Assembly (NCBI RefSeq): GCF_041248615.1
Contig: NZ_CP158426.1
Strand: one strand, 5' to 3'
From: Escherichia coli
GTDB lineage: Bacteria > Pseudomonadota > Gammaproteobacteria > Enterobacterales > Enterobacteriaceae
DNA length: 64,000 bases
In this document: positions 57,140 through 57,505 of the stretch, in pieces
Numbering within the stretch: position 1 is the first letter of the stretch
Layout: the number at the start of each line of letters is the position of its first letter
Program-made: the position numbers and the translations under genes
The notes under the pieces: generated by a model
The model's input: the letters and a program-made list of their open reading frames with translations, nothing else
What the model was told of the DNA's origin: nothing
Database searches by the model: none

Positions 57140-57505
57140 ATGAAACTTTTCTTCCAGATTGGATACAATCAGGCCGTATCCCGTATTACAGGCTTATCAC
57201 GTGTGACAGTCAGTCTCTGGGTGTGTTCAGGAACATTCCCTGAAATGTCAACCCGGCCTCCAGAGCGAGGACTTCTGGCCCCATGGAGGGAGTGGTTAAA
57301 AGAGCAACGAGAAAGTGGTAACTTCGGCGCGTGGCTGCAAGGATGGCAGCTGATGCTGCGGCTATATGTGAGGCAATCAGCAGTCGCTGGAATAATGGGG
57401 GTTGTCGAAAGTCATGTAAATAGACTAAAAATGCTGAAAGGCCAGATGTATGGTCGAGCCGGATTTGAACTACTCAGACAGAGGGTCATGAGTCCACTGG
57501 CATGA
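57140..57505 (+). CDS. hypothetical protein with AlpA-like HTH at N-terminus (possibly a fused/decayed gene)
   Basis: 121-aa ORF; segment ITGLSRVTVSLWVCSGTFPE resembles AlpA/excisionase-type HTH; remainder has no family I recognise. Confidence 0.35.
   Translation: MKLFFQIGYNQAVSRITGLSRVTVSLWVCSGTFPEMSTRPPERGLLAPWREWLKEQRESGNFGAWLQGWQLMLRLYVRQSAVAGIMGVVESHVNRLKMLKGQMYGRAGFELLRQRVMSPLA

What the first reader, a model, noticed from the sequence alone, without database searches (positions are those of the whole stretch)
57140..57505. Orphan ORF with AlpA-like helix-turn-helix inside the island
The N-terminal 35 residues resemble AlpA/excisionase-type regulators usually found beside integrases of genomic islands, but no integrase is present and the C-terminal 80 residues match nothing I recognise. 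It may be a fusion of a decayed regulator with unrelated sequence.
Basis: inference. Interest (0 to 1): 0.3.

Follow-up and report, generated by a model that had tools for sequence, protein, structure and literature searches.

The report
Broken ISL3 transposase gene remnant
The 121-codon ORF is not an orphan AlpA-type regulator but an accidental reading frame across the decayed 3' end of an ISEc38-like insertion-sequence transposase gene, which RefSeq already marks as a pseudogene, so it is ordinary.

Summary
The ORF at 57140-57505 (+) exists. It carries a short helix-turn-helix-like motif, but only below threshold in profile searches (Pfam Phage_AlpA 13.6 bits against a cut-off of 21; HTH_23 and HTH_17 score about the same).

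It is a patchwork of four pieces:
- 12 codons of unrelated intergenic DNA, which supply the ATG.
- Codons 315-363 of an ISEc38-like ISL3-family transposase, in frame (94% nt identity).
- After a 349-bp internal deletion, transposase codons 480-504 read out of frame.
- After a 1-bp G insertion, codons 506-539 and the natural stop, back in frame (33/35 aa identical).

The IS right inverted repeat follows (to about 57555).

The "AlpA-like" motif is the recognition helix of an internal DNA-binding module of the transposase. That module is homologous to the N-terminal tandem HTH of IS21 IstA (PDB 8B4H). Neither of its two HTH folds survives whole in the ORF.

RefSeq annotates 57176-57505 as a frameshifted, N-terminally truncated transposase pseudogene. 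No promoter-like site or properly spaced Shine-Dalgarno sequence precedes the ATG.

There is no integrase because the "island" (50433-57707) is a 7,275-bp unit bounded by IS1414 ends, with an 8-bp target-site duplication.

Verdict: ordinary IS debris; low interest.

The parts
57140..57505 (+). The 121-codon ORF of the finding: an accidental chimeric reading frame. GenBank submitters called it 'hypothetical protein'. RefSeq/PGAP marks 57176-57505 as a transposase pseudogene (frameshifted, missing N-terminus).
57140..57176 (+). 37 nt of non-IS DNA that supply the ATG and the first 12 codons (MKLFFQIGYNQA). The DNA is identical to other E. coli records up to exactly 57176, where they continue differently. 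In those records the same ATG opens only a 21-codon ORF in an intergenic stretch downstream of a LysR gene.
57177..57321 (+). ISEc38-like ISL3 transposase codons 315-363, in the ORF frame (94% nt identity to ISEc38). This is the source of the 'AlpA-like' motif. By alignment to IS21 IstA it covers the end of helix 2 and the recognition helix of HTH-1, the linker, and the first helix of HTH-2. Two arginines of the recognition helix are replaced (R328L, R331C).
57320..57322 (+). Junction of a 349-bp internal deletion (ISEc38 gene codons about 364-479 removed; 2-bp AA microhomology). It shifts the frame by one.
   Evidence: the same junction occurs in the complete-length degenerate copies L005 and L006
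57322..57396 (+). Transposase codons 480-504 read out of frame by the ORF (ORF residues about 62-86, WLQGWQLMLRLYVRQSAVAGIMG). The true frame reads RRVAARMAADAAAICEAISSRWNNG.
57397..57401 (+). G-run carrying a 1-bp insertion (GGGGG against GGTG in ISEc38). It brings the ORF back into the transposase frame: 349-bp deletion plus 1-bp insertion gives a net -348 bp, or 116 codons.
57402..57505 (+). Transposase codons 506-539 plus the natural TGA stop, in frame (33/35 aa identical to ISEc38 Tnp residues 505-539).
57506..57555 (+). Right end of the ISEc38-like element, including its terminal inverted repeat. 57511-57555 matches the reverse complement of the ISEc38 left end. The match to ISEc38-type copies ends at 57539-57552.
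56021..56895 (+). Neighbouring debris: IS3-family transposase pseudogene (56021-56724) and a further IS3-family 3' fragment (about 56756-56895).
50433..57707 (+). Context: the whole 'island' is a 7,275-bp transposition unit. It consists of intact IS1414 (50433-51747) plus a 5.96-kb passenger that ends in a solo IS1414-like right end (57645-57707, 86% identical to 51685-51747). It is flanked by the 8-bp direct repeat ATCAAATC (50425-50432 and 57708-57715).

Best explanation
The ORF is non-functional debris: an accidental open frame across the 3' remnant of an ISEc38-like (ISL3-family) insertion sequence.

Inferred history, in three steps:
1. An ISEc38-like copy lost 349 bp inside its transposase gene and gained one G 75 bp further on. 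The two changes happen to cancel in frame.
2. This already dead copy was cut at codon 315 by a non-homologous junction with unrelated intergenic DNA. That DNA happens to contain an ATG in the right frame.
3. The result is a stop-free run of 121 codons ending at the transposase's own stop codon.

The AlpA-like look comes from the surviving recognition helix of the transposase's internal IstA-type HTH module. That module is probably used by the intact enzyme to bind the IS ends.

Shown here: the sequence anatomy, the homologies, the junctions, and the presence of the same deletion and insertion in complete-length copies elsewhere.

Inferred: that the ORF is not expressed or has no function.
For: - PGAP annotates 57176-57505 as a transposase pseudogene, frameshifted and missing its N-terminus.
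- tblastn and blastn against full-length ISEc38 (539 aa) map three pieces. Tnp 315-366 is in frame (87% aa). Tnp 480-505 is in another frame (88%). Tnp 505-539 is in frame (94%). DNA identity is 90-94%, with a 349-bp gap and a 1-bp insertion.
- A complete-length degenerate copy with both inverted repeats and the same deletion and insertion exists in E. coli S51 (L006). A left-truncated copy with the same deletion and insertion sits on a plasmid (L005). Both are 97.4-97.7% identical to the window remnant, so the deletion predates the 5' truncation.
- The junction at 57176|57177 is exact. The left side equals L008/L009 and the right side equals L006. In L008 the same ATG opens only 21 codons.
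- The IS right inverted repeat follows the stop codon.
- The named or domain-bearing homologues are ISL3 transposases or fragments of them. None is a small regulator.
- NCBIfam gives the ORF 36 bits to transpos_ISL3 over model positions 275-368 only. The parent scores 374.8 bits.
- By alignment to IstA (HTH-1 = aa 1-39, HTH-2 = aa 55-104; PMC10122671), the ORF keeps only the equivalent of IstA residues about 23-71. Neither HTH fold is complete.
- The ORF alone gives no significant PDB match. Its single-sequence AlphaFold2 model is of low confidence (mean pLDDT 49.7).
- No promoter-like site lies upstream. The only AAGGA ends 16 nt before the ATG.
- In the out-of-frame stretch, 6 of 8 differences from ISEc38 are non-synonymous in the ORF frame.
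Against: - The frame is open for 121 codons and is kept in the copies examined. About 74 records carry the stretch at >=99% identity. The exact protein is called on 24 contigs. These copies are nearly identical, so this says nothing about selection.
- The two frame-breaking changes cancel each other, which looks neat, but it needs only that 25 out-of-frame codons lack a stop.
- Transcription by read-through cannot be excluded with these tools.
- The AlphaFold2 run used a single sequence, so its low confidence is not evidence of disorder.
Confidence: 0.95

Rival explanations
1. One reading: a decayed AlpA/excisionase-type regulator of a genomic island, which lost its integrase partner and became fused to unrelated sequence.
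For: - Residues 12-35 align with Pfam Phage_AlpA profile positions 8-31 (E=0.064).
- The motif TGLSRxT...W...G.FP resembles AlpA-type HTHs (my own knowledge of the family consensus).
- The ORF lies in horizontally acquired DNA.
Against: - The AlpA score of 13.6 bits is below the cut-off of 21 and no better than generic HTH families.
- In the full-length parent, HTH_7 (22.0), HTH_17 (21.4), HTH_38 (20.2) and HTH_29 (18.8) all beat AlpA (14.7).
- The same region is significantly homologous to the IS21 IstA HTH tandem (E=1.6e-10 in PDB; E=1.6e-16 in NCBIfam).
- The segment is 94% identical in DNA to the interior of the ISEc38 transposase gene.
- No ~65-aa homologue and no integrase neighbour were found.
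- The C-terminal part is the same transposase gene.
- The island has an 8-bp target-site duplication at IS1414 ends, so it arrived by transposition and never needed an integrase or excisionase.
Confidence: 0.01
2. The chimeric ORF is expressed. Its product is a truncated transposase derivative that retains a recognition helix, the minor-groove linker and the transposase C-terminus. It binds ISEc38 ends or poisons transposase multimers, damping ISEc38 transposition as Tn5 Inh or IS1 InsA do for their elements.
For: - The open frame is kept in all near-identical copies seen.
- It retains the residue equivalent to IstA R31, a major-groove contact in IstA.
- Truncated transposase derivatives acting as inhibitors are established for Tn5 and IS1 (my own knowledge, not tested here).
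- ISEc38-type elements are common in E. coli. 3,029 of 5,426 genomes match part of this stretch.
Against: - Neither HTH fold is complete.
- Two arginines of the recognition helix are lost.
- 25 residues are out-of-frame nonsense and 12 are foreign.
- There is no promoter-like site and no well-spaced Shine-Dalgarno sequence.
- Nothing points to selection. The copies are near-identical, and the out-of-frame stretch shows mostly non-synonymous change in the ORF frame.
- The structure model has low confidence.
Confidence: 0.03
3. Sequencing or assembly artefact: the frameshifts and the junction are errors in this one assembly, and a normal transposase gene lies there in reality.
For: The record is a linear, possibly unfinished chromosome. 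The island sits next to an rRNA operon, a classic place for misassembly.
Against: - The stretch 55400-57708 is 100% identical in an independent complete genome (ECCNB12-2, L007).
- Window 56000-57708 is 99.9-100% identical in 19 further listed records.
- The same deletion and insertion occur in L005 and L006.
- The island borders show a clean 8-bp target-site duplication against a K-12-type empty site.
Confidence: 0.01

Closest known systems
ISEc38 (ISL3-family insertion sequence of E. coli; NCBI 'ISL3-like element ISEc38 family transposase', 539 aa)
   Same: - DNA is 90-94% identical over 57177-57539, including the natural stop codon and the right inverted repeat.
- Protein pieces are 87-94% identical to Tnp residues 315-366, 480-505 and 505-539.
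   Different: - Only about 380 bp of the ~1.76-kb element remain. The left end and codons 1-314 are missing.
- 349 bp (codons about 364-479) are deleted and 1 bp is inserted.
- The closest relatives are not ISEc38 itself but a degenerate sub-lineage (97.4-97.7% identity) that carries the same deletion (L005, L006).
AlpA / Phage_AlpA (PF05930): small excisionase-like HTH regulators next to integrases
   Same: A 24-residue stretch with an HTH-like pattern. It lies in acquired DNA.
   Different: - It is below the family threshold (13.6 against 21 bits).
- It is not a ~65-aa stand-alone protein.
- No integrase is nearby.
- Its ancestry is demonstrably a transposase gene.
N-terminal tandem HTH (HTH-1, linker, HTH-2) of IS21-family transposase IstA (IS5376; PDB 8B4H, 8Q4D; PMC10122671)
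   Same: The parent transposase region 302-398 aligns with IstA 10-107 (E=1.6e-10). In IstA this module reads the terminal repeats of the element, which suggests the same role in ISEc38.
   Different: - In ISEc38 the module is internal (about aa 296-430), interrupting the ISL3 DDE profile, not N-terminal.
- The ORF keeps only the equivalent of IstA residues about 23-71, so neither HTH is whole.
Truncated transposase derivatives that regulate transposition (Tn5 Inh, IS1 InsA, IS911 OrfA; from general knowledge, not tested)
   Same: A shortened protein derived from a transposase that keeps part of a DNA-binding region.
   Different: Those are made by designed alternative starts or frameshifting from intact elements and keep whole domains. 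This ORF arises from random deletion, insertion and truncation, and contains foreign and out-of-frame residues.

Membership tests
Phage_AlpA (PF05930) / AlpA-type excisionase-like regulators | Profile match at or above Pfam's gathering score (21 bits) | tested here: not met
   13.6 bits, E=0.064, residues 12-35. The parent transposase scores 14.7 bits and is outscored by four generic HTH families.
Phage_AlpA (PF05930) / AlpA-type excisionase-like regulators | Small stand-alone protein (about 60-70 aa) whose homologues are of the same size | tested here: not met
   All 111 homologues that carry a name or a Pfam domain are ISL3 transposases or fragments of them. The intact relative is 539 aa.
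Phage_AlpA (PF05930) / AlpA-type excisionase-like regulators | Encoded next to a tyrosine integrase at the edge of a prophage or integrative island | tested here: not met
   No integrase is annotated in the 64-kb window. The island is bounded by IS1414 ends with an 8-bp target-site duplication.
Phage_AlpA (PF05930) / AlpA-type excisionase-like regulators | Winged-helix (MerR/excisionase-like) fold | tested here: inconclusive
   The single-sequence AlphaFold2 model has mean pLDDT 49.7 and pTM 0.36, too poor for a fold search. The ORF has no significant PDB sequence match.
ISL3-family transposase gene (ISEc38-like) | Sequence homology to ISL3 transposases (NCBIfam NF033550, cut-off 180 bits; Pfam PF01610) | tested here: met
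   Met as a fragment only. The ORF scores 36 bits over model positions 275-368, while the parent ISEc38 Tnp scores 374.8 bits. Identity to ISEc38 is 87-94% in aa and 90-94% in nt.
ISL3-family transposase gene (ISEc38-like) | Terminal inverted repeat of the element next to the gene end | tested here: met
   57511-57555 matches the reverse complement of the ISEc38 left end and the right ends of L004 and L006. The left end is absent.
ISL3-family transposase gene (ISEc38-like) | Complete zinc ribbon and DDE catalytic domain, that is, a functional member | tested here: not met
   Codons 1-314 and about 364-479 are missing, and 25 codons are out of frame. PGAP flags it as a pseudogene. It is therefore a remnant of a member, not a working member.
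IS21 IstA-type tandem HTH DNA-binding module | Two complete HTH folds joined by a linker (IstA aa 1-39 and 55-104) | tested here: not met
   The parent aligns with IstA 10-107 (E=1.6e-10). The ORF retains only parent residues 315-363, equivalent to IstA about 23-71. Domain limits are from PMC10122671.

The most novel reading that the evidence does not exclude
The chimeric ORF is translated, and its product is a trans-acting inhibitor of ISEc38-family transposition. It retains the HTH-1 recognition helix, the minor-groove linker and the last 35 residues of the transposase. This would be an accidental, newly born regulator made from IS debris.
Probability: 0.03. Interest if true: 0.3.

Novelty: already known. 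Interest (0 to 1): 0.05.

Why it matters
It matters little. The result removes a false lead: the ORF is neither a regulator nor an integrase-less island module.

It also shows how an HTH motif in a short orphan ORF inside acquired DNA can simply be a shard of a transposase. The practical lesson for annotation is that such ORFs (deposited in GenBank as 'hypothetical protein') should be checked against IS elements at the DNA level.

The side observations are of modest interest to people who study IS elements. One is that the island is an IS1414-mobilised unit. The other is that ISEc38-type ISL3 transposases contain an internal IstA-like tandem HTH.

Tried and rejected
- **Pfam scan of the ORF.** Only sub-threshold HTH hits, so it cannot by itself prove or disprove an HTH.
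- **PDB sequence search with the ORF alone.** Only chance-level hits (mTOR FRB and others, E>0.1). The IstA relation is visible only from the full-length parent.
- **AlphaFold2 on the single sequence.** Mean pLDDT was 49.7, which is inconclusive, so no fold search was run.
- **Rfam scan of 56700-57800.** Only sub-threshold matches. RNAI scored 29.7 against 47 bits over the IS1414-like end and the yhdZ terminator hairpin, which I take as chance.
- **Promoter and terminator scan.** Nothing upstream of the ORF. The only terminator is that of yhdZ.
- **Synonymous versus non-synonymous counts.** Too few differences to test selection (4-9 per comparison); used only as a weak indication.
- **Mechanism of the 57176|57177 junction.** I tried to work it out from L005, L006, L008 and L009. 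The two sides lie near the same LysR...carbamate-kinase cluster in other genomes, but in an orientation that would need an inversion. This is unresolved.
- **The 21-nt match at 57045-57065.** It recalls an IS2 terminal repeat from memory. I did not verify this.
- **A first NCBIfam call failed.** I had included frames containing stop codons. It was repeated correctly.

Full report
**Where the window comes from.** Window 56000-57770 is 100% identical to the chromosome of E. coli NRZ14408 (NZ_LT599825.1), which places the window at 512001-576000 of that record. The finding lies in a 7.3-kb stretch of acquired DNA between the end of the rrnD operon (second 5S rRNA gene at 50141-50256) and yhdZ (57770-58528, minus strand).

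**Checking the observation.** An ORF of 121 codons runs from ATG 57140 to TGA 57505 on the + strand. Pfam gives four weak hits:
- DUF7520, 14.0 bits
- HTH_23, 13.7 bits
- Phage_AlpA, 13.6 bits (E=0.064, residues 12-35, cut-off 21)
- HTH_17, 13.3 bits

All are below their curated cut-offs. The statement that the C-terminal 80 residues match nothing is wrong, as shown below. ORF length is no argument either. The same 7 kb contains six unannotated ORFs of 103-137 aa lying across real genes in other frames.

**What it is.** RefSeq/PGAP already annotates 57176-57505 as 'transposase; frameshifted; incomplete; missing N-terminus'. A protein search with the ORF returned 111 hits, in two classes apart from exact copies:
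- Proteins matching residues about 13-65 at 80-87% identity.
- Proteins matching residues 87-121 at 91-94% identity and carrying Pfam PF01610 (DDE_Tnp_ISL3).

Both classes are pieces of one gene, the 539-aa transposase of ISEc38-like ISL3 elements. I fetched intact copies from plasmids pAA-ST131 (L003, annotated 'ISL3-like element ISEc38 family transposase') and C5 plasmid B (L004).

tblastn and blastn of these against the window give the anatomy below.

| Window coordinates | Origin | Relation to the ORF frame |
|---|---|---|
| 57177-57321 | Tnp codons 315-363 (94% nt identity) | in frame |
| junction 57321\|57322 | 349 bp missing (ISEc38 L003 2845-3193, codons about 364-479; 2-bp AA microhomology) | shifts the frame by one |
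| 57322-57396 | Tnp codons 480-504 | out of frame. The true frame reads RRVAARMAADAAAICEAISSRWNNG, also listed as the 30-aa ORF 57331-57423 |
| 57397-57401 | G-run with one extra base (GGGGG against GGTG) | restores the frame |
| 57402-57505 | Tnp codons 506-539 plus the natural stop (33/35 aa identical to residues 505-539) | in frame |
| 57511-57555 | right end of the IS; matches the inverted repeats of ISEc38 | after the stop |

The 349-bp deletion and the 1-bp insertion sum to -348 bp, or 116 codons. That is why the frame stays open.

**The first 12 codons are foreign.** Up to exactly 57176 the window is identical to records such as plasmid p98206-contig_4 and the AR_0085 chromosome (L008, L009). 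Those records then continue into an intergenic stretch and a LysR gene. From 57177 the window is identical to the degenerate IS copy in L006. In L008 the same ATG opens only a 21-codon ORF. The start codon is therefore an accident of a non-homologous junction.

**Order of events.** E. coli S51 (L006) carries a complete-length copy with both inverted repeats that already has the same 349-bp deletion and extra G, plus further frameshifts. A poultry plasmid (L005) carries a left-truncated copy with the same deletion and insertion. Both are 97.4-97.7% identical to the window remnant. So the element was dead before its 5' two-thirds were lost in the lineage of the window.

About 74 records carry the window form at >=99% identity, and 124 carry relatives at 95-99%. 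The exact 121-aa product has been deposited as 'hypothetical protein' and is called on 24 contigs. Gene callers give 114-aa or 86-aa versions in other copies.

**Where the 'AlpA-like' motif comes from.** In the intact ISEc38 transposase the Pfam ISL3 DDE profile is split; the first part ends at residue 295. The HTH hits cluster at residues 293-338: HTH_7 22.0, HTH_17 21.4, HTH_38 20.2, HTH_29 18.8 and AlpA 14.7 bits, all below cut-off.

Two searches tie this region to IS21:
- NCBIfam matches residues 303-398 to the N-terminus of IS21 transposases (E=1.6e-16).
- A PDB search aligns residues 302-398 with residues 10-107 of IstA of IS5376 (8B4H, 8Q4D; E=1.6e-10).

In IstA these residues are HTH-1 (1-39), a minor-groove linker, and HTH-2 (55-104). 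They read the terminal repeats of the element (PMC10122671).

The ORF keeps only the equivalent of IstA residues about 23-71: the end of helix 2 and the recognition helix of HTH-1, the linker, and the first helix of HTH-2. Neither fold is complete. Two arginines of the recognition helix have changed (R328L, R331C). The ORF alone finds nothing in the PDB. Its single-sequence AlphaFold2 model is of low confidence (pLDDT 49.7), which is inconclusive.

**Expression signals.** No sigma-70-like site lies upstream of the ATG, and the count of such sites in the region equals the shuffled expectation. The only AAGGA ends 16 nt before the ATG. Rfam finds nothing above threshold. Transcription or translation cannot be tested with these tools.

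**Why there is no integrase.** The evidence that the island arrived by transposition is as follows.
- The island runs from 50433 to 57707 (7,275 bp).
- It starts with an intact IS1414 (50433-51747). This IS256-like element has the astA/EAST1 ORF embedded at 51220-51336, as described for IS1414 (PMC12585946).
- It ends with a 63-nt solo copy of the IS1414 right end (57645-57707, 86% identical to 51685-51747).
- It is flanked by the 8-bp direct repeat ATCAAATC (50425-50432 and 57708-57715). The K-12-type empty site has that octamer once.
- The 5.96 kb between the two ends is 99.98% identical to part of a larger pathogenicity island of strain ECCNB12-2, which carries iha and remnants of an integrating conjugative element.
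- Only this one genome among 5,426 complete E. coli genomes has the junction with yhdZ.

The island therefore arrived by transposition using IS1414 ends, not by site-specific integration. The lack of an integrase or excisionase is expected.

**Comparison with known families.** The ORF is a remnant of an ISL3/ISEc38-type transposase gene, with DNA-level identity, the natural stop and the inverted repeat all present. It is not a working member, because the zinc ribbon, most of the DDE domain and part of the insertion module are gone. It fails every tested defining feature of the AlpA family: score, size of homologues and integrase neighbourhood. It resembles truncated transposase-derived regulators only in the loosest sense.

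**Verdict.** This is ordinary IS debris, already annotated as a pseudogene. Confidence is 0.95 and interest is 0.05. The most novel reading not excluded is that the chimeric peptide is made and interferes with ISEc38 transposition. I put that at about 3%.

Noticed in passing
window 50425-57715: The whole 'island' is one transposition unit of 7,275 bp (50433-57707). It consists of intact IS1414 plus a 5.96-kb passenger that ends in a solo 63-nt IS1414-like right end (57645-57707, 86% identical to 51685-51747). It is flanked by an 8-bp target-site duplication, ATCAAATC, and the K-12-type empty site has a single copy of that octamer. Only 1 of 5,426 complete E. coli genomes has this insertion next to yhdZ.
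   Followed up: yes
L003:1757-3373 (ISEc38 transposase), residues about 296-430; window 57177-57321 is a piece of it: ISEc38-type ISL3 transposases (539 aa) carry an internal module homologous to the N-terminal tandem HTH of IS21 IstA (PDB 8B4H/8Q4D residues 10-107, E=1.6e-10; NCBIfam IS21 E=1.6e-16). It interrupts the ISL3 DDE profile after residue 295. I did not check whether this domain insertion has been described.
   Followed up: partly
window 51220-51336 (+), inside IS1414 (50433-51747): An intact 38-codon astA (EAST1 heat-stable enterotoxin) ORF, MPSTQYIRRPASSYASCIWCATACASCHGRTTKPSLAT, is embedded in another frame of the IS1414 transposase gene. This arrangement is known for IS1414.
   Followed up: partly
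window 51748-57708; L007 3649-9609: The passenger DNA is 99.98% identical to a segment of a larger pathogenicity island in E. coli ECCNB12-2, which also carries iha and remnants of an integrating conjugative element. The passenger holds decayed ABC-transporter genes, an intact PhoX-family phosphatase gene with a twin-arginine signal (53399-55378, minus strand), IS3 fragments and the ISL3 remnant.
   Followed up: partly
L006 1962-3378 (E. coli S51 chromosome); L005 (plasmid of strain 729_xx_1_3_yolk): A degenerate ISEc38-like lineage has a 349-bp internal deletion plus a 1-bp insertion. It exists as a complete-length copy with both inverted repeats in L006 and as a left-truncated copy in L005. 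In both it sits next to a carbamate-kinase gene cluster. In other genomes the DNA to the left of the window's 57176 junction lies next to a LysR-ankyrin-DUF2877 gene cluster, which may be the other end of that same region (not checked), so the junction may reflect a local rearrangement.
   Followed up: partly
window 57045-57065: A 21-nt exact match (TTGGATTTGCCCCTATATTTC) to L003 1141-1161, outside ISEc38 on plasmid pAA-ST131. From memory it resembles an IS2 terminal inverted repeat, so it may be a further solo IS end. Not verified.
   Followed up: no
window 57640-57750 (+): A sub-threshold Rfam match to RNAI (29.7 bits against a gathering score of 47, E=0.0029). It spans the IS1414-like end hairpin and the bidirectional yhdZ terminator hairpin (57720-57747). 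Probably chance similarity of stem-loops.
   Followed up: no
window 56021-56895: Two IS3-family fragments lie just upstream. One is a frameshifted pseudogene with an internal stop (56021-56724). The other is a separate 3' fragment, 86-91% identical to ISEc31-like elements (about 56756-56895). The ISL3 remnant therefore sits in a small graveyard of IS debris.
   Followed up: partly
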